In this document: one piece after another, positions 2,631-14,225 of the stretch | Layout: each line of letters begins with the position of its first letter | How positions within the stretch are numbered: position 1 is the stretch's first letter | NCBI GenBank assembly: GCA_039028735.1 | Contig: JBCCHQ010000016.1 | Span: forward strand, 1,758-65,757 | DNA length: 64,000 nucleotides | Origin: Planctomycetota bacterium | GTDB lineage: Bacteria > Planctomycetota > UBA8108 > UBA1146 > JAJFFE01 | Reading direction: 5' to 3' | Made by a program: the position numbers and the translations under genes | The notes under the pieces: generated by a model | What the model was told of the DNA's origin: nothing | What the model saw: the letters and a program-made list of their open reading frames with translations, nothing else | Database searches by the model: none

Positions 2631-4850
2631 ATGGCACGGACGAGTTCGCACAACTTGACGGTACTCTGCTTTGCGGTATCTACATTCCTGACAGGTTTCT
2701 CAGGGGGCGCGTGGGCCCAGGGGGGCCCCGGAGTCGTTGGCAATCGCCAGATCGACGGGATCGCAACCCGACCTGGGTCGGCGCCGGGAACTCACGCCGT
2801 GCACGTCCTGTGGTCGGCAGGCACCGGCCCAGCGACAGCGACAGCGGACTGGAGCACACTCATCGAAGTGCGCGTCAACGGCACGACCGCCGCTTCGGTG
2901 ACGGCGACCGCCATCGCACTGGGCGCAATCGACTGCAACCTACCCGTCGGCGGCTGCAGCAGTAGTGCCTGCGGCAGTTGGAGCACCGGCGCGCTGACGG
3001 TCGACGGCTTCTGCCGTCCCTCTTCGGCTGCGACTGGCGGCTGCGAATGTGGCGCCTTGTTCATCACGGAGCTACCGCCGGTGCCGCTGGTCCCCGGCGA
3101 TGAGATCATGGTGATCTTGCTCCCCGCTCCAGGCGCACTCCCGGATTCCAATACTACAGACGACACCTGGGTACAGACATTCTCGAAGACGATCGCCGGT
3201 CCGAACCGGTCGATTCAGAGCGTCGAGCTCCAGCCCAGCCCGACCGGCGGCACCAACATTCATGTGAGCTACCACGTCGAGTCGGGTCCCTCCAGCACAA
3301 CGCTCGACCTGAGCACCGGCATCCAGGTGCTCTTGAACGGCACTGTGATCTCGGACACGACACACACACTCGGCAAAAACCCTGATTTTGGTTCTTGCGA
3401 GAACAACGCCTGCGAGAACCAACAGGGTTGCGCGCTGTACTTGAGCCCCGCGAGCCCACCCATTGGCGGCGCTTGCCTAGGCAGCAAGACGCAACAAACG
3501 TGTGCCTGCACGGTCGCTTTCGCGACGGATGTTCCGGCGGCACCGTTGACCCCGACCGATGAGATCATGGTGATCCTCTATCCAGCCGCGGGCGCCTGGC
3601 CAGATCTCCCGGCACTGCCAGCCGACGACGTCAGTGTTGCACCAACTCAAGGCAATCGACGCATCGCAGCCATTGCGTCGCAGCCTGCAGCTACCGCAGG
3701 CAGCGAGGTCGTCTGCGTGATCTGGGAGATCAACGCAAAGCAGTCGACTGTCCCGCAGGATTTCTCGACGCGCCTCGACCTCGTCGTCAACGGGGTTCCC
3801 GTCGCATCGGCGTTGCAGACGGCAATTGCCCTGCAAGCGACCGACTGCGCCCTCTCCGGCGGCTGCACCCAAGGCATTTGTGGCAGCTGGGACAACGGTC
3901 TCGCCATAAGCGATGGTTTCTGCCGCGACATCTCCGGGCCGGCCAGCCCACCCGAGTGTATGTGCGGACACTGGTTCACGACCGACTTCCCGCCGGTACC
4001 GCTGCAACCCGGTGACGAAATCATGATCATCCTGTATCCAGCCCCCGGAGCACTGCCCGACGGCGTCGAGCACGATGACACGTGGGCACAAGTTCACGCC
4101 GGTCCGATCGCCGGGCCCAACCGCTCGTTCTCTTCGGTACAGGTGACGCCCAGCTCCGCAGCGCCCGGCACCTCCGACGTTCACATCGAGTATCGTGTGG
4201 AGGCCGGCCCTTCCGTGCTCGCGCTGGATCTCAGCACCGAAGTCGAGATCCAGGTCAACGGCGTCGTCGTGCACAACTCGACGCGCACGATCAGCAAGAA
4301 CCCCGACCTTGGCAGCTGCGACAACAACGCGTGCCTGAACATGATCGGGTGCGCGATCTTCGATTGCCCACCGACGATTGGCGTCGCGGGACAGTGCTTC
4401 TTCAGTCAAACGCAGCAGAACTGCGTCTGCGCGACTCTTCTGTCACTCGACGTGGGAGCGATCCCGCTGGACCCGAACGACGACCTCGTCGTGATCCTGC
4501 GCCCCGTGCCAGGCGCCCTGCCGGAGCTCCCAGGATTCCCGCCAGACGACGAAGGGATGCCTGATCCGACCGCACCGAACTTCGATCGTGGCGACTGCAA
4601 TGCGGACGCCAACTTCGATATCGGCGATCCAGTCACGCTACTGTCGGAGCTCTTCGGGGGGCAGACTCCGGGGCCGTGCGCAGACGCGTGCGACATGAAC
4701 GACGACGGAACGAAGAACATCGCCGACGCAGTCTATGCTCTGAACGCACTGTTCAACGCAGGCGCTGCCCCGCCCAGCCCACACGATGCCTGTGGCGTCG
4801 ATCCAACGAACGACCCACTGGACTGCGCAAGCTACGCGCCCTGCCCATGA
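2631..4850 (+). CDS. Secreted Cys-rich protein with four internal repeats and a C-terminal dockerin-like (type I) module
   Basis: AAGGAGG RBS. Signal peptide (LTVLCFAVSTFLTGFSGGAWAQG). Repeated (D/N)(E/D)(I/L)(M/V)(V/I)IL.P.PGA.P motif four times, with Cys-rich blocks (GSCENNACENQQGC / GSCDNNACLNMIGC). C-terminus: DCNADANFDIGDPVTLLSELF...CDMNDDGTKNIADAVYALNALF (dockerin duplicated Ca-binding segments) plus a Cys tail (CASYAPCP). Confidence 0.75.
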   Translation: MARTSSHNLTVLCFAVSTFLTGFSGGAWAQGGPGVVGNRQIDGIATRPGSAPGTHAVHVLWSAGTGPATATADWSTLIEVRVNGTTAASVTATAIALGAIDCNLPVGGCSSSACGSWSTGALTVDGFCRPSSAATGGCECGALFITELPPVPLVPGDEIMVILLPAPGALPDSNTTDDTWVQTFSKTIAGPNRSIQSVELQPSPTGGTNIHVSYHVESGPSSTTLDLSTGIQVLLNGTVISDTTHTLGKNPDFGSCENNACENQQGCALYLSPASPPIGGACLGSKTQQTCACTVAFATDVPAAPLTPTDEIMVILYPAAGAWPDLPALPADDVSVAPTQGNRRIAAIASQPAATAGSEVVCVIWEINAKQSTVPQDFSTRLDLVVNGVPVASALQTAIALQATDCALSGGCTQGICGSWDNGLAISDGFCRDISGPASPPECMCGHWFTTDFPPVPLQPGDEIMIILYPAPGALPDGVEHDDTWAQVHAGPIAGPNRSFSSVQVTPSSAAPGTSDVHIEYRVEAGPSVLALDLSTEVEIQVNGVVVHNSTRTISKNPDLGSCDNNACLNMIGCAIFDCPPTIGVAGQCFFSQTQQNCVCATLLSLDVGAIPLDPNDDLVVILRPVPGALPELPGFPPDDEGMPDPTAPNFDRGDCNADANFDIGDPVTLLSELFGGQTPGPCADACDMNDDGTKNIADAVYALNALFNAGAAPPSPHDACGVDPTNDPLDCASYAPCP

Positions 4851-4907: not shown

Positions 4908-4945
4908 ACGGGGGCGAGCTGCGGCTCGTCCCCGTCTGTTTGTCC
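4908..4945 (+). terminator. Putative intrinsic terminator after the dockerin-protein gene
   Basis: Hairpin gggggcgagc-tgcg-gctcgtcccc (one mismatch) followed by a T-rich gtctgtttgt. Confidence 0.35.
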
Positions 4946-5028: not shown

Positions 5029-7461
5029 CTAGTACACCCAGGGTCTGGCCTGCTTGATGAGCAGCTTGCCCTTGCGCGTGATCTTGAACTCGATCTCCAT
5101 TGCGAACTGTGCGTCGGGCGTCTGCTCGTAGAGGTTGCGGAACTCCTTCTCGATCGTCCGCAAGGCGCGGCGCAGCTCGAGCAGATGGGGCTGACTCAGC
5201 AACCGACCGCCTCCTTCGACGCGGCTCGCAGTCCGTACCACGGTGTCGGTCCTTGGATTGCGCGGACTCAGGAGGATCTCCTCGGGCGCAGCTTCGGAAT
5301 CGGGGTTCGTCACCAGGTCCTCGCCGACCTGCGCGTTCACGTAAAAACGTGGCCCACCGCGGGCTGCCGAGTCATACAAAATGTCTTGGGTGACGGCGAC
5401 ACCGTTGGCCTGCTCCTTCTTCTGATTGCGGTGCAGCAACACGCCCATCGCCGTCTTCAGGTGATCGACACGATAGAACTCGCGCTCCTCGAACGCGCGA
5501 TAGTTCCATGCGCTCGCATAGACCTGCTTGATGGACTTGGCGAGGTGCCCCTCGCCCTTCTTGTGCGTGAAAGAATCGTACAGCCCTGCGCCGCTGAAAC
5601 CCGGCAAGTCCTCGTTGTTCGTGCTCGACCGGCAGCGGATCGACTTCCCTTTCGGGAACTCTCGTCGCACCTTCGCAAGCGCGTCCAGCGCCCACTGCGG
5701 CATCTCTGCGTCCTTGATTGCCGCACGGAACTGCTGCAACGCTTGATCGCGCCGGTTCGCGTCCTTCTTGAATTCTTCCGCCGCCATCATCTTCTGCGCC
5801 ATCGCGTACAGCCCGTTGTGGCGCATGAACTCGTCGTAGAACGAGAACGGCACGGCATAACCATTGGGGATCAGCTTCTTCCTCAGCCCCAGCTTGCGCA
5901 GCGCGGCTAGGTTCGCCGCCTTGACGCCGAAACGCGCCGAGTCGCTGAAGCCAATGTCGTCGAGCGCCCGAATCTCTTTGACCGAAAGGTCACGCGGTGG
6001 CAGTTGAGCAGAAGCTGGACGCAGCGACGCAAAGTGAGCCTCCACTTCTTCTGCATCGGCTTCGCGCAACTGGTAGCCATCGGCGGCAACAGTGTATTTG
6101 ACGTACTTGCCGATCAACGCCTGGATGGCAGCGTTCTCGAGTGCGTTTGCGATGAACGCGTTTGGGACATTGTCCTGCACTGCCCGAAGATTCACATGCG
6201 AAAGCGGCGTTTGTCGCACCGCTGTGATCACACCCGCCACTCGCGGCATCTCGTTGGGCAAAGTCGAGTACAACACAACGTCGCGAATTCCGGGACGTTG
6301 ATTGGTCTTCATCAGTCGCAGCCGACCAAAAGACGTCGCCTGGTGCAGCGGCAGGAAGGCAATGCCTGCGTACTGCTCCGAGGACTCCTCGAAGACAGGT
6401 AGATTTGCGTCGTAGTAGCGATCGAACTCTGTCAAGTACTGCCGCTTGGCCGTCGGCAGCAGGTGGTACGACAGATTTCCGCGCAAGATCGGCGCCGTCT
6501 TCTCGAGCATCTTGAAGGCCACTTGCACGAGCTCGAATTCGTAAGCATCCTCTGGCTCGAACTCGAACGTGTAGTGACCGGACCGACCGGATGGAGACTT
6601 GAGCAGCGGCCGATAGACCAGCACACCGCGCATTTGATCATAGCCGCCACGCGCCAAGCCAATCGCGCCGCTGAACATCATGTGCGCGCGATGCGTCTTC
6701 GTGTTCATGAAGTACATCGTCGGTTTGTCGCCAGCCGCGTTCTCGATCTGAAATTTGACGTATTCGACGCCGCGCAGGTGTGTGTCGATCAGTACTTCAT
6801 CGCCTTGGTACGACATCTCTTTGAAAGTCGCGCGGTCCTTGATCTCAGCGACGCCGTCCTTGCGATCGAGATCTTGCGGCTGCACAGGGCCGCCGGCACG
6901 CTGGGTGCGGCCTCCGCGACGCGCGCCGCCGCCAGGACGGCGCCCGAAGATGGGCTGCAGCTCGCTTGCTGACAGCATCCCGTCGGCATCCTCGTCCAAC
7001 TTCCGCAGCAAGACCGCTGCGTCGCTGACTTCGTCTTCGAACAGCTCCCCATCCCGATCGAGATCCAACGCGATCATCACCGGCAGCATGCGCAGAATCC
7101 CACCGGGCCCCATCGGCGGGCCTCGGCGACGGCCTCTTCCCTCGCCGAACGCCGAGGCTTCCGGCGTAATCTCATCGGTTGTCAGATTTCCGTCCTTATT
7201 CACGTCGAGCGTGAGGAGTTTCTGGTGAGCTGCTGCGATCTCTTCGGCTGACAACGCTCCATCGGAATTCTCGTCCAGAGCCTTCATCATCGGAAACGAC
7301 TGCATCATGTCGCCGAAACCTCGTCGCCCTCGTCGCGGAGGTCCATCTTGAGCCAAGGTTAGCGTCGTCACGGCGAGTAAGATCGCGACGAGAATCGTGA
7401 CCGCAATGGTGCCGCTGAGAAGTGCGGGCGCCGGCGCGTTTCGATGTGGAGAAGAGCGCAT
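5029..7461 (-). CDS. Membrane-anchored protein with four EF-hands, a PEP-utilising swivel His domain and a PPDK_N/ATP-grasp (pyruvate phosphate dikinase N-terminal-like) domain
   Basis: N-terminal TM. Four canonical 12-residue EF-hand loops (DENSDGALSAEE, DVNKDGNLTTDE, DLDRDGELFEDE, DEDADGMLSASE). Swivel-like TPLSHVNLRAVQDNVPNAF. C-terminal nucleotide-binding region GVKAANLAAL...RSSTNNEDLPGFSGAGLYDSF...GVAVTQ resembles PEP synthase/PPDK_N. Domain order is the reverse of PpsA. Confidence 0.75.
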   Translation of the reverse strand: MRSSPHRNAPAPALLSGTIAVTILVAILLAVTTLTLAQDGPPRRGRRGFGDMMQSFPMMKALDENSDGALSAEEIAAAHQKLLTLDVNKDGNLTTDEITPEASAFGEGRGRRRGPPMGPGGILRMLPVMIALDLDRDGELFEDEVSDAAVLLRKLDEDADGMLSASELQPIFGRRPGGGARRGGRTQRAGGPVQPQDLDRKDGVAEIKDRATFKEMSYQGDEVLIDTHLRGVEYVKFQIENAAGDKPTMYFMNTKTHRAHMMFSGAIGLARGGYDQMRGVLVYRPLLKSPSGRSGHYTFEFEPEDAYEFELVQVAFKMLEKTAPILRGNLSYHLLPTAKRQYLTEFDRYYDANLPVFEESSEQYAGIAFLPLHQATSFGRLRLMKTNQRPGIRDVVLYSTLPNEMPRVAGVITAVRQTPLSHVNLRAVQDNVPNAFIANALENAAIQALIGKYVKYTVAADGYQLREADAEEVEAHFASLRPASAQLPPRDLSVKEIRALDDIGFSDSARFGVKAANLAALRKLGLRKKLIPNGYAVPFSFYDEFMRHNGLYAMAQKMMAAEEFKKDANRRDQALQQFRAAIKDAEMPQWALDALAKVRREFPKGKSIRCRSSTNNEDLPGFSGAGLYDSFTHKKGEGHLAKSIKQVYASAWNYRAFEEREFYRVDHLKTAMGVLLHRNQKKEQANGVAVTQDILYDSAARGGPRFYVNAQVGEDLVTNPDSEAAPEEILLSPRNPRTDTVVRTASRVEGGGRLLSQPHLLELRRALRTIEKEFRNLYEQTPDAQFAMEIEFKITRKGKLLIKQARPWVY

Positions 7462-7482
7462 TTGCTCCCTTTCGAGTGACCC

Positions 7483-8262
7483 TCAGAAGATGCTGATGTA
7501 GCCGAGCTGCTCGCAGCCGGTGACGTACTTGGAGAAGCGCGCCTTCCGCGCCGGCAACGGCCGCAAGGCACCGTGCACTGCAGCGTGCTCAGTCGGTGCG
7601 TGCTTACACTCAATCAAAGCGACGCCACTGAGCCGGTGCACGAACCGACGTGATAGGCAACGCCGAAAGAGCTGAGGATAGAAGCGAATGTTGTAGTCCA
7701 GCGTGAACCGGGCGCCTGAACCATCGAGGGCGAAGTGCTCGCGGTCGTACTCAACGAGCACGACGGCTTCCGTGTCGTCGTACAAGTGTCGCGTGTAGGG
7801 ATCGGGAATCGTCCGACGAAGCGCAGCGTGCAGGCGCTTCAGTGGCGTCGACTGGAAGTCACTGTCGTTGCCGATGCGTAGACGGTGCTTGCCGGTCGCT
7901 CGGTGGCGGCGCCACTTCTTCTCATAGAAGAAGTGATCGCCGGGGTAAGGCTGATCGTACCACCGTAGCCGCGTCTTGTGGCGCAGTCCCACACCGTCGA
8001 GGTTCGCACGGCAAGCACTCAGCCGCGGATCGTCGAAGTAGATGCTAGCAACTTTCGACACTCGGTCGCCGTAGACGATCGGTGTGCAGCTGCGCCGCAA
8101 GGTCGTGCGCAGGGTAGCAACATCGAAGTTGGTGAATACGTACTTCGACTCGCGTCGAAGCGACAAATCATCGCGCGCCTTGCCATCGTCGAGCAGCCTT
8201 AGCCTCGCGCCTGACGTTGACATCAGAGCAGCCCGGCGCTGTTGACATAGGAGATCTGGCAA
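7483..8262 (-). CDS. VTC-domain (polyphosphate polymerase-like/CYTH-like tunnel) protein
   Basis: Roughly 250-aa soluble protein. Sequence character (KYVFTNFD..., conserved R/K/E/Y pattern) matches bacterial VTC-domain proteins that neighbour DUF4956. Assignment by recall only, not searched. Confidence 0.6.
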   Translation of the reverse strand: MPDLLCQQRRAALMSTSGARLRLLDDGKARDDLSLRRESKYVFTNFDVATLRTTLRRSCTPIVYGDRVSKVASIYFDDPRLSACRANLDGVGLRHKTRLRWYDQPYPGDHFFYEKKWRRHRATGKHRLRIGNDSDFQSTPLKRLHAALRRTIPDPYTRHLYDDTEAVVLVEYDREHFALDGSGARFTLDYNIRFYPQLFRRCLSRRFVHRLSGVALIECKHAPTEHAAVHGALRPLPARKARFSKYVTGCEQLGYISIF

Positions 8263-8906
8263 TCGGGGAGTCGGCTGCGCAACTCGGCAATCAAGTTCGG
8301 CGCCGATTCAGGCTCGACTCGATGCAGTCGTACCCGCAACTGCCCCTCCTCGCCGTCGATCTCGCAACGCTGAACTGTCAGATGCGGGTGCAGGTCGCGC
8401 ACCGCTGCCAGCGCCAGCTCTTCCCCCGCAAACATCGACGCTGGCCCAACGATCGTCAGGTAAGCCTCGCCATCGCTTGTGCGGAGGCGATCGAACAGCA
8501 GCACGAACACGGTCGCCACGCCAACCAGAGCTATGGCTAGCCACAACTGTTGGGCACCCAGCGTCAAGCCGACGCCGATACAGAGGAACAAATACACGAG
8601 TTCTTCGGGATCCTTGATCGCAGCGCGAAAACGCACAATCGACAGGGCCCCTACCAAGCCTAGCGACAAAGCCAGCGATGACTTCACGACCGTGATCACG
8701 GCGATCGTGACCAGGGTCAGCAGCGGGAAGACCTTGGCGATCGAATCCCCCCCGGCTTGCGGACTGGTGCGGCGATAGAGGAAGCGAATGAACATCGCCA
8801 GCAGCCCGCCGAGCAACAAGCTGAAGCAAAACTGCGAAAGCGATGTCGTCGGTGCCGCGAACGTTGGCTCGAGGTGCTGCCACTGGTCGACGAGCCACTG
8901 TTTCAC
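8223..8906 (-). CDS. DUF4956-family membrane protein
   Basis: Polytopic N-terminal half with the signature SLGLVGALSIVRFRAAIKDPEELVYLF, plus a soluble C-terminal domain. Typical genomic partner of VTC-domain genes. Confidence 0.65.
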   Translation of the reverse strand: MKQWLVDQWQHLEPTFAAPTTSLSQFCFSLLLGGLLAMFIRFLYRRTSPQAGGDSIAKVFPLLTLVTIAVITVVKSSLALSLGLVGALSIVRFRAAIKDPEELVYLFLCIGVGLTLGAQQLWLAIALVGVATVFVLLFDRLRTSDGEAYLTIVGPASMFAGEELALAAVRDLHPHLTVQRCEIDGEEGQLRVRLHRVEPESAPNLIAELRSRLPDCQISYVNSAGLL

Positions 8907-9247
8907 GGCAAGCCTCTATAGCGCTGGGGCCCGATCGATGGGCCACTCGAAGTCGAAGGAAGTCAGAATCTGCGCCTACTGCGTGGGAGCCTAGCAGAGC
9001 ATGCCCCGAAATGGCCACCCTTCCGGGTTCTACCACGAACACGAGACATACGGCCTCCCCAGCCCTATGCGACAACAACTGCACGAAGTTCGGCCCAGTA
9101 CACCGGGTTTGCCAAACTTTCCCGCGTTTTGGGGCCCTGCGGCGTGACACTCGCCCGAAGGCGGCTCGTCCTTGCTGCCTCGGCGTGGGCATGTTGCAAT
9201 TGGAGCGACCCTCCAGTTTCAAGACCCAGAGCCCTGAGGAGCTGCCG

Positions 9248-9802
9248 ATGTCCCGCTTTTCCCTGAACTCACTACGTGCGCGCCGAATCGTGTGTCGTAA
9301 CCGCGTGTCCTCGTTCGTTGTCGTTGCGGCTTGCCTGATGCTTGGCGCTGTCGCGTCGGCTCGCGGCCAAGAAGAGGGTGCGGTTCAGGCGACGGGAACG
9401 GACGGTCCCAAGTTCCAAAGCGTCATCGTCGTGCAACTCGCCGTCAAAGACATCGACGCTGCCGTGAAGTTCTACACAAAGACGCTGGGGCTCGAGCTGG
9501 GATACCAGATCGATGCAATCAAGTGGGCGCAGATAAAGACCCCGGTTCCGGGCTTCACGCTGGGGATCGGCGAGGACCGAACGGCAAAGGGGAGCGGCAC
9601 GGCGTCGGTCAACCTCGCAGTCGCAGATACGGACGCCGTACGCAAGATGCTCGAAGAACGCGGCGTGAAGTTCAGCCAAACGATGGAGATCCCCGGAGTG
9701 GTCCGTTTGGCCGACTTCACGGATCCCGACGGCAACCGTTTGCGCCTGGCCGGCCCCCCGACTGGGAAACCGGCCCAGGGGAAGACCGAGGAGAAGCTGT
9801 AG
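9248..9802 (+). CDS. Secreted VOC/glyoxalase-family protein
   Basis: Signal peptide, then VIVVQLAVKDIDAAVKFYTKTLGLE...ADFTDPDGNRLRLA (glyoxalase fold motifs). Start moved downstream of the ORF-track start to the ATG at 9248. Confidence 0.6.
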   Translation: MSRFSLNSLRARRIVCRNRVSSFVVVAACLMLGAVASARGQEEGAVQATGTDGPKFQSVIVVQLAVKDIDAAVKFYTKTLGLELGYQIDAIKWAQIKTPVPGFTLGIGEDRTAKGSGTASVNLAVADTDAVRKMLEERGVKFSQTMEIPGVVRLADFTDPDGNRLRLAGPPTGKPAQGKTEEKL

Positions 9803-10951: not shown

Positions 10952-11794
10952 ATGCACGTCATGGCTGTTCTCTTCTGCTGCTGTCTATTGTCGGGCGATG
11001 CGCCGCGTGCGGTCGACAATCAAGAGTGGATCCAACGCGACCTCGCCGTCGCCCGCCACATCGTTTCGTGCCTGCCGCCAGACGGCGTCCCAACTAGCGC
11101 CTGGCTGGCCAAACTAGCGCCGAGTCGAGACGAACGATTCGAACTCGGCTACGGCGGCCGGCGCCACGACCTCGCGTGCTACGGCGGCTACACGACGACC
11201 TGGATCACGCTGGTGAGTTTCGAAGACCGGATCGTGTCGATCGACATCAAGAACCCCCTCGAGAAAGACGAGGTGGAGCCAGTCGGTCGCGTCCTGACGC
11301 CAGTGTGGAGCAAGTATGCACAACTGTCAGAGGGCACCTTGCACTACAGCTATCGCGATGCCGTCGCCCTGGCTGACTTTCGCGCCGCGGTCAGCGCTGC
11401 ACTGGGCGCACCGGCAAAGGTCGCTGTGAGTGACGCCTATGCAGGTGCCTATGCACTACTGACCGAGCCAGCCAGCAAGCTGGTCTTTGGCGACATCTGC
11501 TACTACGGCGGCACAAAGCCAGAAGGGCGTGCCGCCACGGACTCACTAGTCGCAGGGGAGCAGGTCGCACTACTGCGCAACGTCTTGCGAAGCATGAATC
11601 CGGTCGCTCGCGTGTACGCTGCGGCCGCTTTGTTGAAACTGCAAGCGAATGGCACTGAGCTCGTATCCACCGACGCGGACGTTATCGAAAAGATCCGTAC
11701 GTCGAAAATCTTGCTGCAAGCCTGCTTTGGGTCTCTCCTGCACGAACAGACCGCAGCGGTGCTACTCACCAACAAAGACGACAAGGCCAAGTAG
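10952..11794 (+). CDS. Secreted hypothetical protein with HEAT/armadillo-like C-terminus
   Basis: AAGGAG RBS 6 nt before the ATG at 10952. Signal peptide MHVMAVLFCCCLLSG. C-terminal NVLRSMNPVARVYAAAALLKL. Confidence 0.5.
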   Translation: MHVMAVLFCCCLLSGDAPRAVDNQEWIQRDLAVARHIVSCLPPDGVPTSAWLAKLAPSRDERFELGYGGRRHDLACYGGYTTTWITLVSFEDRIVSIDIKNPLEKDEVEPVGRVLTPVWSKYAQLSEGTLHYSYRDAVALADFRAAVSAALGAPAKVAVSDAYAGAYALLTEPASKLVFGDICYYGGTKPEGRAATDSLVAGEQVALLRNVLRSMNPVARVYAAAALLKLQANGTELVSTDADVIEKIRTSKILLQACFGSLLHEQTAAVLLTNKDDKAK

Positions 11795-11855
11795 GAACCT
11801 CACCGCTGGCTCAGGGGCCCTGCCACATCGCTGTCGTTGCGGGTATCATGCACGC

Positions 11856-14225
11856 ATGCGTTTCCCTAGCAACGATAGCGGCGGTGCGAGTCCGCCTGTG
11901 CAGCGCGGCTTCATCCTCCATCCGACCTACAAGATCGAGAATGGACGCGCTGTCGTGCACCTCTACGGACGGCTCGAAGGTGGCGAACGCTTTCTTGTTC
12001 GTGACGATCGGCAGATACCGCACTTCTACATCCGCACGCAGGACCAGGTTCGCGCGCACGCGATTCCACAAGATCGCTGCGAGCCGAGTGACCGTCATAC
12101 TTTTCAGGGGGACCCGGTCACGCAAGTCGACGTGCGGATCCCTTCCGATACGCCGGGGATTCGCAACAAGCTGCAACGCGACCTGATCCAAACATACGAA
12201 GCCGATGTGCGGTTCGCGATGCGCTACTTGATCGACCGCGGCATTCGCGGATCGATTGCAATTCACGGCCACGGCAAGGCCGTTGCGCAGCGGGCGCTGC
12301 TGTTTGAGAACCCCACATGTACGGCTGGTGATTGGGACCCGGAACTGACACTGCTGTCCTTCGACATCGAAACCGACATGACAGCCGACAAGTTGCTGTC
12401 CTTCTCGCTGTACGGGTGCGGTGCCGCCGAAGTCCACCTGCTCGACGGCCCTGGACTAGCGCGCCCCCAGCGAGCCGTCGTCTACGACGATGAACGTTCG
12501 CTCCTCGAAGCCTTCTGTCGGCGTGTCCGCGAACTGGATCCCGATATCATCACGGGTTGGAACATCGTCGAGTTCGACTTTCCGGTGCTCGAGAAGATCG
12601 GCAAGCGCTGCGGAGTCCCGCTAGAACTCGGACGCAGCGCCGGAGTCGCACGCGTCCAAGCGGGAAGCGGCCGCGGCGGCGCCCTTGTGAACATCATCGG
12701 ACGAGTTGTCCTCGACGGGATTCGGCTACTGCGTGGGGCGTTCGTGCAGATGGACAGCTATGCCCTCGACGCGGTAGCGCGCGAGATCTTGGGTGAAGGG
12801 AAGTTGCTGGCGGGTCATGGGCGCGGTCAAGAGATCAGTCGCCTGTTCGAAGAAGATCGTGACCGCTTCGTCGAGTACAACTTGACCGATGCCCGTTTGG
12901 TCGTCGAGATTCTGGAGAAGATGCGGCTGATCGAACTGAGCGTGGAGCGAAGTCGCTTGACCGGGCTGCCCCTCGACCGGGTATCGGGCTCCATCGCAGC
13001 GTTCGATTTCCTCTACCTGTCAGAGCTGCACCAGCGCAAGATCGTCGCCCCAACCGTCGGCGCTTTCGATGAGGAGCGAGAAGGCACGACTGGCGGACAC
13101 GTTCTCGAGCCGAAACCGGGGCTGCACGACCGAATCTTGGTGTTCGACTTCAAGAGCCTGTACCCAAGTGTGATCCGGACATTTCAGATCGATCCATTGG
13201 GCCTCGTGTACGACCACGGCCAAGAGGAGACAGACCAAATGTCTGTCATCGTCGCGCCGAACGGGGCTCGCTTCCGCCGCGAGCCAGGCATCTTGACGGC
13301 CATCCTGGATGAGCTCTTTCCGCGCCGCGCCGCGGCACAGGCAGCCGGGAACAAGGTTGCCAGCCAAGCCATCAAGATCTTGATGAACTCGTTCTACGGC
13401 GTCTTGGGCACGCCAGCCTGCCGCTTCTACAACAGCGCTCTAGCAAACGCGATCACGAGCTTCGGCCGCGAGCTATTGTTGTGGTCGCAAAACTACTTCG
13501 AGCAGCACGGCCACCGGGTCTTGTACGGCGACACCGATAGCCTGTTCGTCGAGTCGAACTGCGAGGACTCCGCTGCGGCCAACGCCCGCGGCGAGGCACT
13601 GTGCGCCGAACTGAACGCAGCTCTGACCAAGCACATCGCCGAGAAGTGGCAAGTCGAGAGTCGCCTAGAGCTGCAGTTCGAGACCCTGTACTTGCGGTTG
13701 TACTTGCCGGCGATGCGGCACAGTACCGCGGGAGCGCGCAAGAGATACGCGGGGATGGTGCAAGACGAGGAGCAAGGCCTCGCGGTGGTCTTCAAGGGAC
13801 TCGAGGCTGTGCGGCGCGACTGGACGGATCTCGCCCGGCGTGTGCAGCGGGAGATCTACCGGCGGCTGTTCCTCGAAGAGCCGATCCCAGACTATCTGTG
13901 CGACATCATCGATGACTTGCGTGCGGGGCAGTTCGATGAAGAGCTCGTCTATCGCAAAGCGCTGCGCAAGAAGCTAGAAGCGTACACATCGACGACCCCC
14001 CCACACGTCGCTGCGGCCCGCAAACTCGATACGCCTCCGGGACGTCTGATCGAGTACTACATGACCAAGGAGGGACCCGAACCTTTGGCCAAACACGACA
14101 GCCCGATCGACTACGAGCACTACCTCGACAAGCAGCTCCGCCCGATCGCCGAGCCGGTCCTGGATTTGATCGGTGTGAGTTTTCAGTCACTGCTGGGTGG
14201 AGAACAGCAACTCGAGTTGTTCTAG
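11856..14225 (+). CDS. polB: DNA polymerase, family B (Pol II-like)
   Basis: Exo motif FDIETD, polymerase motif A DFKSLYPSVI, motif B KILMNSFYGVLG, motif C YGDTDSLFV. Confidence 0.85.
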   Translation: MRFPSNDSGGASPPVQRGFILHPTYKIENGRAVVHLYGRLEGGERFLVRDDRQIPHFYIRTQDQVRAHAIPQDRCEPSDRHTFQGDPVTQVDVRIPSDTPGIRNKLQRDLIQTYEADVRFAMRYLIDRGIRGSIAIHGHGKAVAQRALLFENPTCTAGDWDPELTLLSFDIETDMTADKLLSFSLYGCGAAEVHLLDGPGLARPQRAVVYDDERSLLEAFCRRVRELDPDIITGWNIVEFDFPVLEKIGKRCGVPLELGRSAGVARVQAGSGRGGALVNIIGRVVLDGIRLLRGAFVQMDSYALDAVAREILGEGKLLAGHGRGQEISRLFEEDRDRFVEYNLTDARLVVEILEKMRLIELSVERSRLTGLPLDRVSGSIAAFDFLYLSELHQRKIVAPTVGAFDEEREGTTGGHVLEPKPGLHDRILVFDFKSLYPSVIRTFQIDPLGLVYDHGQEETDQMSVIVAPNGARFRREPGILTAILDELFPRRAAAQAAGNKVASQAIKILMNSFYGVLGTPACRFYNSALANAITSFGRELLLWSQNYFEQHGHRVLYGDTDSLFVESNCEDSAAANARGEALCAELNAALTKHIAEKWQVESRLELQFETLYLRLYLPAMRHSTAGARKRYAGMVQDEEQGLAVVFKGLEAVRRDWTDLARRVQREIYRRLFLEEPIPDYLCDIIDDLRAGQFDEELVYRKALRKKLEAYTSTTPPHVAAARKLDTPPGRLIEYYMTKEGPEPLAKHDSPIDYEHYLDKQLRPIAEPVLDLIGVSFQSLLGGEQQLELF

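What the first reader, a model, noticed from the sequence alone, without database searches (positions are those of the whole stretch)
5029..8906. EF-hand plus reverse-order PEP-utilising/ATP-grasp enzyme next to a VTC-domain and DUF4956 pair: candidate Ca-responsive membrane phosphotransfer or polyphosphate system
The 810-aa protein has an N-terminal TM, four canonical EF-hand loops, a PEP-utilising swivel phospho-His-like segment (TPLSHVNLRAVQDNVPNAF) and a C-terminal PPDK_N/ATP-grasp nucleotide-binding domain. This order is the reverse of PEP synthase and of rifampin phosphotransferase. The strongly basic stretch just after the TM (PPRRGRRG) suggests the catalytic part is cytoplasmic and membrane-tethered. 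Immediately downstream on the same strand are a VTC-domain protein and a DUF4956 membrane protein. The VTC domain is the CYTH/triphosphate-tunnel fold of eukaryotic polyP polymerase Vtc4. In other bacteria the VTC-DUF4956 pair usually travels with CotH-type atypical kinases; here a Ca-binding dikinase-like enzyme takes that place. I know of no characterised system with this composition.
Basis: partly seen in the sequence, partly recalled or inferred. Interest (0 to 1): 0.72.

Follow-up and report, generated by a model that had tools for sequence, protein, structure and literature searches.

The report
Exported dikinase with polyphosphate-polymerase-like module
A three-gene operon pairs a cytoplasmic polyphosphate-polymerase-like enzyme and its membrane partner with an exported, calcium-binding phosphate-transferring enzyme, which suggests an uncharacterised way for bacteria to phosphorylate targets outside the cytoplasm.

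Summary
Window 5029-8906 (minus strand) is a tight operon: DUF4956 (5-TM, MgtC-like), then a VTC protein that keeps every Vtc4 catalytic residue, then an 810-aa protein. That protein has a signal peptide, four canonical EF-hands, a domain with no structural match, a histidine-swivel domain (invariant H422) and a C-terminal PPDK_N ATP-grasp.

- The 810-aa gene is the last gene of the operon, not the first.
- The N-terminus is most likely a cleavable signal peptide, not a cytoplasmic tether. Relatives are fused to cadherin, FN3 and Calx-beta domains.
- The domain order has a precedent in plant glucan water dikinase.

The dikinase belongs to a large uncharacterised family, found in at least 584 species genomes. 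VTC and DUF4956 sit next to it in 16 of 80 sampled loci. They always occur together there, in three gene orders and across at least two phyla.

In a separate DUF4956-centred sample of metagenome contigs, the third gene is usually an extracytoplasmic CotH kinase. One of these CotH proteins carries the same EF-hand leader.

So this is a dikinase variant of the known but unexplained CotH-VTC-DUF4956 trio. The most likely mechanism is inferred, not shown: VTC and DUF4956 supply a phosphoryl donor (polyP) across the membrane to the exported enzyme, which phosphorylates a surface glycan.

The parts
8223..8906 (-). Gene 1: DUF4956 membrane protein (227 aa, GTG start). It has five hydrophobic segments (aa 26-44, 59-74, 78-91, 103-117, 121-138). 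The invariant RFR motif (R92, R94) is predicted to lie on the cytoplasmic face. A soluble C-terminal tail of about 85 aa follows.
   Evidence: Pfam PF16316 E 1.7e-15, with a weak MgtC hit. Hydropathy analysis. Alignment A4 invariants. A published description of the streptococcal homologue as MgtC-like TM plus cytoplasmic ACT domain (PMC12345266).
7483..8223 (-). Gene 2: VTC-domain protein (246 aa), a Vtc4-like triphosphate-tunnel enzyme. It has no hydrophobic segment and so is cytoplasmic. Its start codon overlaps the stop of gene 1 by one base.
   Evidence: Pfam PF09359 E 1.4e-21. The family profile hits the yeast Vtc4 catalytic domain 3g3q at E 4e-19, with RxxxKY, SxYFD, RLRWY, ExK, YxR, RxxLD, ExK and SK(Y/F) aligned. 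R23, K27, Y62, D64, R85, R87, Y89, E101, K103, K112, R114, R161, R172, T174, D176, E205, K207, S231, K232 and Y233 are invariant in 26 sequences. Maximum 19-residue hydropathy is 0.49.
7462..7482 (-). 21-nt spacer between genes 2 and 3, with a Shine-Dalgarno-like GGGAG.
   Evidence: Sequence read directly.
5029..7461 (-). Gene 3: 810-aa exported EF-hand dikinase-like protein. It is the last gene of the operon.
   Evidence: ORF and translation. More than 1000 homologues. AF2 model with pLDDT 84.6 and pTM 0.80.
7351..7461 (-). Predicted Sec signal peptide (aa 1-37, ending TLA|Q).
   Evidence: Family statistics: 105 of 117 homologues have an N-terminal hydrophobic segment; the median uncharged run is 16 aa; the run ends in A|Q or A|E in 68 of 105. 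The A-Q column is conserved in alignment A1.
6955..7290 (-). Two EF-hand pairs (four canonical loops at aa 63, 86, 133 and 156), separated by a G/R/P-rich linker.
   Evidence: Pfam EF-hand_1/5/6/7. Loop regular-expression search. The model is confident in the EF pairs and disordered in the linkers.
6367..6879 (-). Central alpha/beta domain (aa 195-365) of unknown fold family. It carries the invariant motifs YFxNTxxxRxH and (F/Y)ExxPxD (FEFEPxD in most members). It is the presumed acceptor-binding and second phosphotransfer site.
6022..6366 (-). Phosphohistidine swivel domain (aa 366-480). The candidate catalytic His422 (codon 6196-6198) lies at the start of a short helix within the invariant QTPLSHVNLR.
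5032..5979 (-). C-terminal ATP-grasp nucleotide-binding domain (PPDK_N). The GxKxxNL, RSSxxxEDLxxxSxAG and ExE...QxRP motifs are intact.
   Evidence: PF01326 E 1e-28. Foldseek 5hv1 E 9e-16, 2ols E 2.5e-14, 1kbl E 2e-08. Profile alignment to PEP synthase 2ols.
4908..4935 (.). Hairpin with 12 base pairs (9 G-C) between the convergent 3' ends of gene 3 and the 739-aa ORF 2631..4850. Candidate bidirectional terminator.
   Evidence: Terminator scan. The total number of such sites does not exceed the shuffled controls, so this is weak evidence.

Best explanation
The operon encodes a three-part system that spans the cytoplasmic membrane.

(1) A cytoplasmic Vtc4-like triphosphate-tunnel enzyme. It most likely polymerises the gamma-phosphate of ATP into polyphosphate.

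(2) DUF4956, a five-helix MgtC-like membrane protein with a cytoplasmic tail. It is always encoded beside the VTC protein and most likely forms a complex with it. By analogy with the yeast VTC complex, it would anchor the polymerase and conduct its product across the membrane.

(3) A Sec-exported, Ca-binding dikinase built like glucan water dikinase (central domain, His-swivel domain, ATP-grasp). It would be phosphorylated on His422 and pass that phosphate to an extracytoplasmic acceptor bound by the central domain. The acceptor is probably a cell-surface or exo-polysaccharide.

The dikinase sits in the slot that an exported CotH kinase holds in most such operons. The shared job of VTC and DUF4956 is therefore most likely to provide the phosphoryl donor outside the cytoplasm, where ATP is not normally available.

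Shown here: gene organisation, domain identities and folds, conservation of catalytic residues, the exported nature of the third component (by sequence and fusion evidence only), and conserved linkage.

Inferred: polyP synthesis, translocation through DUF4956, use of polyP as the donor, and a glycan acceptor.
For: Operon structure: a one-base overlap and a 21-nt gap.

The VTC protein keeps every aligned Vtc4 tunnel residue, including the counterparts of K200, R264/R266, E426 and S457/K458. The residue roles come from the Vtc4 literature as I recall it, not from a paper read here.

VTC and DUF4956 co-occur in 16 of 16 linked loci, in the orders DUF-VTC-DIK, VTC-DUF-DIK and DIK-VTC-DUF, in Planctomycetota (including cultured Stieleria marina) and in Bryobacterales. 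Linked loci are scattered over the dikinase tree. One metagenome contig encodes a single DUF4956-VTC fusion ORF.

The third component is exported:
- Signal-peptide statistics.
- Fusions of the same core to cadherin, fn3, Calx-beta and Ig domains.
- CotH partners with signal peptides or N-terminal signal anchors.
- Streptococcal CotH is described as secreted (PMC12345266).

Slot equivalence: L081 has DUF4956-VTC-[EF-hand+CotH+LTD], and L084 has DUF4956-VTC-dikinase. The N-terminal signal peptide plus EF-hand module is homologous between that CotH and the dikinase.

The dikinase machinery is intact: ATP-grasp motifs, swivel fold, invariant His.

The yeast VTC complex couples polyP synthesis to membrane translocation (PMC9911596 abstract).

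Glycan context:
- GT2, GT4, ABC-transporter and glycoside-hydrolase genes lie beside VTC/DUF4956 loci.
- The trio lies beside pel loci, and mutants in two of its genes, the DUF4956 and CotH homologues, reduce Pel-dependent aggregation (PMC7112168; PMC12345266).
- A chitin-synthase-like gene lies nearby in C. perfringens.
- GWD-type dikinases phosphorylate a polysaccharide.
Against: - No bacterial VTC or DUF4956 protein has been shown to make or move polyP.
- DUF4956 is unrelated in sequence to the yeast VTC membrane domain.
- The ATP-grasp keeps all nucleotide and phosphate-binding motifs. This fits ATP as the donor at least as well as polyP.
- 64 of 80 dikinase loci lack VTC/DUF4956 within the flanks, including all Poribacteria and Verrucomicrobiota loci. 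The enzyme can evidently work without an adjacent pair.
- A basic stretch right after the predicted cleavage site, present in the window protein and in 25 of 106 homologues, is unfavourable for Sec export in E. coli.
- The fusion ORF comes from a single metagenome contig and could be an assembly frameshift.
- The acceptor is unknown, and the central domain has no recognisable fold relatives.
Confidence: 0.4

Rival explanations
1. Co-regulated but mechanistically independent. VTC and DUF4956 make or regulate cytoplasmic polyP, or DUF4956 acts as an MgtC-like regulator of phosphate and ATP homeostasis. The exported dikinase uses ATP that reaches the periplasm or the outside by some other route. 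The genes are clustered only because they respond to the same signal, for example phosphate, calcium or biofilm state.
For: The ATP-grasp motifs for nucleotide binding are fully conserved. 64 of 80 dikinase loci have no VTC/DUF4956 nearby. DUF4956 has a weak MgtC match, and MgtC is a regulator rather than a channel (as cited in PMC12345266).
Against: Two unrelated exported phosphotransferases (CotH and the dikinase) occupy the same slot beside the same pair. Three different gene orders keep all three genes adjacent. The genes show translational coupling. Simple co-regulation does not explain why the partner is always extracytoplasmic and always a phosphotransferase.
Confidence: 0.22
2. PolyP is the substrate, not the donor. 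The exported enzyme acts on an extruded polyP chain. It might cap it, attach it to a surface molecule, or trim it. Alternatively it runs the dikinase reaction in reverse to make ATP from AMP outside the cell. The EF-hands would handle Ca-polyP.
For: The same linkage evidence applies. Dikinase reactions are reversible (established for PPDK). Ca-binding modules (EF-hand, cadherin, Calx-beta) recur in the family, and polyP is a strong Ca chelator. An Arg-rich stretch follows the signal peptide in a subset.
Against: Most family members are not linked to VTC/DUF4956. EF-hands are absent from three linked members. CotH, the usual partner, is a protein-kinase-like fold with no known polyP chemistry. 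There is no direct evidence.
Confidence: 0.15
3. The N-terminal helix is a membrane anchor, the EF-hands and catalytic domains face the cytoplasm, and the enzyme works with cytoplasmic ATP as a Ca-responsive dikinase next to the VTC polymerase.
For: In the window protein the uncharged N-terminal run is long (about 25 aa) and is followed by PPRRGRRG. 25 of 106 homologues have a net charge of +3 or more after the run. A cytoplasmic location would solve the ATP-supply problem.
Against: The median uncharged run in the family is 16 aa, which is too short to span a membrane. A conserved A|Q cleavage-type motif is present. 66 of 106 homologues have a net charge of +1 or less after the run. Relatives carry cadherin, fn3 and Calx-beta domains. 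The equivalent CotH partners are signal-peptide or type-II anchored proteins, and the streptococcal CotH is described as secreted.
Confidence: 0.1
4. Chance adjacency of three unrelated genes.
For: Most dikinase loci lack the pair.
Against: 16 independent species loci in at least two phyla keep the trio in three gene orders. A 1-nt overlap and a 21-nt gap separate the genes. Parallel CotH trios exist.
Confidence: 0.02

Closest known systems
CotH / polyphosphate-polymerase (VTC) / DUF4956 accessory gene trio of Gram-positive pel loci (for example Streptococcus intermedius SIR_1594/1593/1592) and of C. perfringens NELoc-2
   Same: Both have the same VTC and DUF4956 pair, encoded together. The third gene encodes an extracytoplasmic phosphotransferase. 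Polysaccharide-synthesis genes often lie nearby. In a Pirellulaceae relative, the CotH even carries the same signal peptide plus EF-hand leader.
   Different: Here CotH (a protein-kinase-like fold) is replaced by a histidine-swivel ATP-grasp dikinase, a different catalytic mechanism. The trio itself has no established biochemical function. I found no paper that mentions a dikinase partner; only five library papers mention DUF4956 at all, and I read one of them.
Alpha-glucan water dikinase (plant GWD1 / PWD)
   Same: The order of catalytic modules is the same: substrate or central domain, then His domain, then C-terminal ATP-binding domain. The catalytic His lies at the start of a short helix. 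The ATP-grasp is close to that of rifampin phosphotransferase. A weak PF22973 hit is present.
   Different: There are no CBM45 or CBM20 domains. The central domain is about 170 aa, against about 440 aa in GWD1, and shows no detectable similarity. The protein is exported and carries EF-hands. The acceptor is unknown. The PF22973 score is below Pfam's threshold.
Yeast/protist VTC complex (Vtc4-Vtc3/2-Vtc1)
   Same: The triphosphate-tunnel catalytic domain has all catalytic residues conserved (E 4e-19 to 3g3q). The polymerase is associated with a membrane component.
   Different: There is no SPX domain. The tunnel domain is a separate soluble protein. The membrane partner is DUF4956 (MgtC-like), not the DUF202-type helices of the Vtc proteins. 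Translocation is unproven.
PEP synthase / PPDK / rifampin phosphotransferase
   Different: The domain order is permuted. There is no PEP/pyruvate TIM-barrel and no rifampin-binding domain. PF00391 is not detected by sequence. The protein is exported.
MgtC family
   Same: DUF4956 has a weak Pfam match to the MgtC membrane domain, with five helices plus a small cytoplasmic C-terminal domain (PMC12345266).
   Different: The match is far below threshold (18.7 bits against a 31.4-bit cut-off). MgtC is a regulator that acts on the F1Fo ATPase and PhoR, and it is not known to pair with a VTC enzyme.

Membership tests
PPDK/PEPS-type histidine-swivel dikinases | ATP-grasp nucleotide-binding domain (PF01326) with phosphate and Mg-binding motifs | tested here: met
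   PF01326 E 1e-28. Foldseek 5hv1 E 9e-16. GxKxxNL, RSSxxxEDLxxxSxAG and ExE..QxRP align to PEP synthase 2ols.
PPDK/PEPS-type histidine-swivel dikinases | Mobile phosphohistidine domain with an exposed catalytic His | tested here: met
PPDK/PEPS-type histidine-swivel dikinases | Autophosphorylation on His and transfer of the beta-phosphate to an acceptor | not testable with these tools
   Needs labelled ATP or polyP assays with wild type and an H422A mutant.
Alpha-glucan water dikinase (GWD/PWD) | Domain order: central domain, His domain, C-terminal ATP-binding domain | tested here: met
   Model and Pfam coordinates compared with the StGWD1 description.
Alpha-glucan water dikinase (GWD/PWD) | GWD-type His domain (PF22973) | tested here: inconclusive
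   E 0.035 and 14.2 bits against a 27-bit cut-off in the window protein. 11 of 30 members hit it, with a best E of 0.0026.
Alpha-glucan water dikinase (GWD/PWD) | Starch-binding CBM45 or CBM20 modules and the large GWD central domain | tested here: not met
   No CBM hit. The central domain is about 170 aa and has no structural relative in the PDB.
Vtc4-type polyphosphate polymerase (VTC, PF09359) | Triphosphate-tunnel domain matching PF09359 or Vtc4 | tested here: met
   PF09359 E 1.4e-21. Profile against 3g3q gives E 4.4e-19.
Vtc4-type polyphosphate polymerase (VTC, PF09359) | Catalytic tunnel residues (counterparts of Vtc4 K200, R264, R266, E426, S457, K458) | tested here: met
   K27, R85, R87, E205, S231 and K232 are invariant in 26 sequences and aligned to the Vtc4 motifs. 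The residue roles come from the Vtc4 literature as I recall it, not from a paper read here.
Vtc4-type polyphosphate polymerase (VTC, PF09359) | SPX regulatory domain and fused membrane domain | tested here: not met
   The protein is 246 aa with a single domain and no hydrophobic segment.
Vtc4-type polyphosphate polymerase (VTC, PF09359) | PolyP synthesis from ATP coupled to translocation | not testable with these tools
   Needs enzyme and proteoliposome assays.
DUF4956 (PF16316) | Pfam match and multi-pass membrane topology | tested here: met
   PF16316 E 1.7e-15. Five hydrophobic segments. Conserved RFR motif.
CotH-VTC-DUF4956 trio | Adjacent VTC and DUF4956 genes | tested here: met
CotH-VTC-DUF4956 trio | CotH kinase (PF08757) as the third gene | tested here: not met
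   There is no CotH domain anywhere in the window. The third gene is the dikinase.
EF-hand calcium-binding proteins | Canonical 12-residue loops (D-x-[DNS]-x-[DNS]-G-x-[ILV]-x-x-x-E) in pairs | tested here: met
   Four of four loops fit. Pfam EF-hand_1/5/6/7 are above or near threshold. Ca binding itself was not tested.

The most novel reading that the evidence does not exclude
VTC and DUF4956 form a bacterial polyphosphate synthase/translocase whose purpose is to energise chemistry outside the cytoplasm. Exported dikinases or CotH kinases would take phosphate from the extruded polyP, rather than from ATP, and phosphorylate surface or exo-polysaccharides. This would be a previously unrecognised way of delivering phosphoryl-transfer potential across the bacterial membrane. 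It would also give a first function to a family of exported dikinases comprising more than 1000 50%-identity clusters.
Probability: 0.25. Interest if true: 0.9.

Novelty: new variant of a known kind. Interest (0 to 1): 0.72.

Why it matters
Bacterial VTC/DUF4956 pairs are widespread. In streptococci, mutants in two genes of the CotH trio reduce Pel-dependent aggregation, and in C. perfringens the trio lies in a pathogenicity locus. Their function is unknown.

Two mechanistically unrelated, exported phosphotransferases (CotH and a GWD-order dikinase) can fill the same slot. This narrows the role of the pair to something both enzymes need outside the cytoplasm, most simply a phosphoryl donor.

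The analysis also reveals a large, unnamed family of exported histidine-swivel dikinases in marine and soil Planctomycetota, Verrucomicrobiota, Poribacteria and Acidobacteriota. Some members are fused to cadherin, fn3 and Calx-beta domains. Enzymes of this class have been studied only as intracellular enzymes.

If the acceptor is a glycan, this would extend polysaccharide phosphorylation by dikinases from plant starch to bacterial surfaces. A cultured carrier, Stieleria marina K23_9, makes the idea testable.

Tried and rejected
- tblastn with the window VTC protein found only 1 of the 16 VTC neighbours.
- The first iterative HMM for VTC was contaminated by an over-extended ORF in L004 that ran into the dikinase gene. 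I rebuilt it from a clean cluster.
- The diverse VTC alignment A3 had no stretch conserved enough for a metagenome scan. I used a DUF4956 alignment instead.
- The AlphaFold-database fold library was not available, so GWD models could not be compared directly.
- A sigma-70 promoter scan found nothing upstream. This is uninformative for Planctomycetota.
- No second copy of any component and no CotH gene is present in the window.
- Nearby window genes (glyoxalase, TPR, PolB, HtrA-like protease, NeuB, inositol monophosphatase, radical SAM) gave no functional clue.
- Conserved neighbours of unlinked dikinase loci (Laminin_G_3, DUF5916/CBM9, sulfatase, Kelch, DUF3500) mostly reflect Poribacteria synteny.
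- Literature searches for a CotH-polyP connection or for secreted PPDK_N proteins found no functional study.
- Chance adjacency was considered and rejected.

Full report
**What is in the sequence**

Window 5029-8906 holds three genes on the minus strand. In the order of transcription they are:
- a 227-aa DUF4956 protein (8906..8223, GTG start);
- a 246-aa VTC-domain protein (8223..7483), whose ATG shares one base with the preceding stop (TGATG);
- after a 21-nt spacer containing GGGAG, an 810-aa protein (7461..5029).

A hairpin with 12 base pairs at 4908-4935 lies between this gene and a convergent 739-aa ORF. The gene upstream of DUF4956 is divergent and encodes a glyoxalase-fold protein. The unit is a three-gene operon. 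No other copy of any component, and no CotH gene, is present in the 64 kb.

**Domain identities**

Pfam gives the following:
- PPDK_N at aa 510-807 (E 1e-28);
- EF-hand families at aa 58-172;
- VTC, E 1.4e-21;
- DUF4956, E 1.7e-15, with a weak MgtC hit.

The four EF loops at residues 63, 86, 133 and 156 all fit the canonical 12-residue pattern.

Only PF22973, the phosphohistidine domain of glucan water dikinase, appears. It is below threshold and occurs in 11 of 30.

Structure prediction settles the point:
- The full-length model is confident (pLDDT 84.6, pTM 0.80).
- Its C-terminal domain matches the ATP-grasp of rifampin phosphotransferase, PEP synthase and PPDK (Foldseek E 9e-16 to 2e-8).
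- H422 lies at the start of a short helix inside QTPLSHVNLR, which is invariant in 30 homologues.
- The nucleotide and Mg-binding motifs of the ATP-grasp align with PEP synthase.
- Residues 195-365 form a confident alpha/beta domain with invariant motifs (YFxNTxxxRxH; (F/Y)ExxPxD, which is FEFEPxD in most members). This domain has no PDB relative.

The domain order is central domain, then His domain, then ATP-grasp. It is not unprecedented. Potato GWD1 has exactly this order, and its authors stress that it differs from PPDK and RPH (PMC13553574).

**Location of the 810-aa protein**

The family says otherwise.
- 105 of 117 full-length homologues have an N-terminal hydrophobic segment. Its uncharged run has a median of 16 residues (quartiles 15 and 18). 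This is too short to span a membrane.
- The run ends in xxA followed by Q or E in 68 of 105. This is the pattern of a cleavable Sec signal peptide.
- The basic stretch is not a family feature. 66 of 106 have a net charge of +1 or less in the 12 residues after the run, and only 25 have +3 or more.
- Independently, a profile of the central-plus-His region finds 1954 clusters at 50% identity (1154 at E below 1e-10). Many are proteins of 1000-3700 aa.
- All five of the long proteins I scanned carry the same core plus PPDK_N fused to cadherin, fn3, Calx-beta or Ig-like domains. These are typical cell-surface modules, and several bind Ca.

The enzyme is therefore most likely exported. This rests on sequence evidence only. 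The Arg-rich start of the mature window protein remains a point against it.

**The VTC and DUF4956 proteins**

A profile of 26 VTC homologues hits the catalytic domain of yeast Vtc4 (3g3q, E 4e-19). Every tunnel motif aligns. The invariant residues K27, R85, R87, E205, S231 and K232 correspond to Vtc4 K200, R264, R266, E426, S457 and K458. The roles of those Vtc4 residues come from my recollection of the Vtc4 literature, not from a paper read here. The protein has no hydrophobic segment and no SPX domain.

DUF4956 has five hydrophobic segments. By the positive-inside rule, the invariant RFR motif and the C-terminal soluble domain are cytoplasmic. This agrees with the published description of the streptococcal homologue as an MgtC-like membrane domain with an intracellular ACT domain (PMC12345266).

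One metagenome contig encodes DUF4956 and VTC as a single 523-aa ORF. That fits a physical complex with the DUF4956 C-terminus in the cytoplasm. A single contig could, however, carry a frameshift error.

**Conservation of the linkage**

Among the 80 loci kept:
- 16 have both VTC and DUF4956 next to the dikinase, and none has only one of the two.
- Three gene orders occur. DUF4956-VTC-dikinase is found in Planctomycetota, including the cultured Stieleria marina K23_9. VTC-DUF4956-dikinase is found in Bryobacterales/Terriglobia. Dikinase-VTC-DUF4956 is found in four loci: two Planctomycetota MAGs, one MAG labelled Proteobacteria and one unclassified. One further locus is convergent.
- Linked loci are scattered over a distance tree of the dikinase core.
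- The other 64 loci lack the pair within the flanks. They include all Poribacteria and Verrucomicrobiota loci.
- EF-hand number ranges from 0 to 8, and three linked members have none. The EF-hands are therefore an accessory module.

**The reverse view**

Three VTC homologues at 41-44% identity to the window protein gave three contexts:
- DUF4956-VTC-[signal peptide + EF-hands + CotH + LTD], followed by a secreted EF-hand protein (Pirellulaceae, L081);
- DUF4956-VTC-dikinase (L084);
- DUF4956-VTC followed by an unknown 389-aa membrane-anchored protein (L083).

The signal peptide plus EF-hand leader of the L081 CotH is homologous to that of the dikinase.

In 83 DUF4956-centred loci (80 metagenome contigs plus the three VTC contexts above), a CotH-like gene is the partner in 46. 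It is the partner in at least 28 of the 37 loci with enough flanking sequence. The dikinase is the partner in two.

CotH partners have signal peptides or N-terminal signal anchors. Many carry PA14, CHB_HEX_C, Fn3_assoc, LTD or ankyrin modules. GT2, GT4, ABC-transporter and glycoside-hydrolase genes are frequent neighbours.

**What is already known**

The CotH/polyP-polymerase/DUF4956 set was noted as an accessory group next to Gram-positive pel loci (PMC7112168). In S. intermedius, mutants of the DUF4956 and CotH genes reduce Pel levels and aggregation; CotH is described as secreted, and no mechanism is known (PMC12345266). The same set lies in C. perfringens NELoc-2 beside a chitin-synthase-like gene (PMC2879425). 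Only five papers in the library mention DUF4956. I read one of them, and searches linking CotH or secreted PPDK_N proteins to this pair found no functional study.

**Interpretation**

The stable part of the system is a cytoplasmic Vtc4-like enzyme with a dedicated membrane partner. The variable part is an extracytoplasmic phosphotransferase of one of two unrelated folds. The simplest common requirement of an exported kinase and an exported dikinase is a phosphoryl donor on the far side of the membrane.

The yeast VTC complex shows that a tunnel-fold polymerase can couple polyP synthesis to translocation (PMC9911596). I therefore favour this sequence: VTC makes polyP at the membrane, DUF4956 passes it out, and the exported dikinase is phosphorylated on H422 and transfers phosphate to an acceptor held by the central domain.

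A glycan acceptor is suggested by three things: the GWD-like architecture, the carbohydrate-binding modules on CotH partners, and the polysaccharide-synthesis neighbourhoods.

None of these steps is shown. The intact ATP-grasp fits ATP as the donor equally well. Most dikinase genes are not next to the pair. I put 0.4 on this explanation as a whole and about 0.25 on the specific claim that polyP is the donor.

Rivals are:
- co-regulation without mechanistic coupling (0.22);
- polyP as the substrate rather than the donor (0.15);
- chance (0.02).

**Verdict**

The system is a new, dikinase-bearing variant of a known but unexplained trio. The analysis also exposes a large, uncharacterised family of exported histidine-swivel dikinases. 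Interest 0.72.

Noticed in passing
P0241-P0389; for example P0242 aa 1808-2425, and L165:8001-11729: The central-His-ATP-grasp core occurs in giant proteins of 1000-3700 aa, fused to cadherin, fn3, Calx-beta and Ig-like (AIR9) domains. One 2.4-Mb contig carries two such paralogues within 8 kb of each other. The family has 1154 clusters at E below 1e-10, and the matches I examined carried no functional name.
   Followed up: partly
L098:3939-5510 (minus strand): A single 523-aa ORF with DUF4956 at the N-terminus and VTC at the C-terminus. It could be a natural fusion of the two partners or an assembly frameshift. A CotH gene with PA14, CHB_HEX_C and LTD modules lies next to it.
   Followed up: partly
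L081:6943-10627: In a Pirellulaceae MAG, the CotH partner carries a signal peptide and EF-hands separated by long Gly/Pro-rich linkers. It is followed by a separate secreted 240-aa EF-hand protein built in the same style.
   Followed up: partly
L086:1985-4300 and L088:7484-9904: These CotH partners of VTC/DUF4956 have an N-terminal signal anchor and a C-terminal block of ankyrin repeats. Ankyrin repeats are an unusual module for a protein predicted to face outward.
   Followed up: no
window 7330-7347 (aa 39-44 onwards) and homologues P0019-P0057: A GRRGRRG-type Arg/Gly stretch directly follows the predicted signal-peptide cleavage site in about a quarter of the family (25 of 106). Its role is unknown. 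It could relate to export, to polyP binding, or simply be a linker.
   Followed up: partly
L083:7031-8200: A third kind of partner follows DUF4956-VTC here. It is a 389-aa protein with an N-terminal hydrophobic segment, a C-terminal membrane anchor and no Pfam match.
   Followed up: no
window 2631-4850 (+): A 739-aa ORF convergent with the operon has no Pfam match at E 0.001 or better.
   Followed up: no
window 11649-14225 (+): A family B DNA polymerase gene (DNA_pol_B plus exonuclease domain), about 3 kb from the operon, in what is otherwise a housekeeping neighbourhood.
   Followed up: no
window 8843-9802 (+): The longest ORF of the divergent glyoxalase-fold gene overlaps the 5' end of the DUF4956 gene. 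Its Pfam domain begins only at aa 197, so the real start is probably much further downstream. The shared intergenic or promoter region is therefore undefined.
   Followed up: no
L118, L135, L155 (flanks of DUF4956/VTC): GT2 (processive-synthase type), GT4, ABC-transporter and GH5-like genes lie beside several VTC/DUF4956/CotH loci. This echoes the pel and chitin-synthase-like neighbours reported in Firmicutes.
   Followed up: partly
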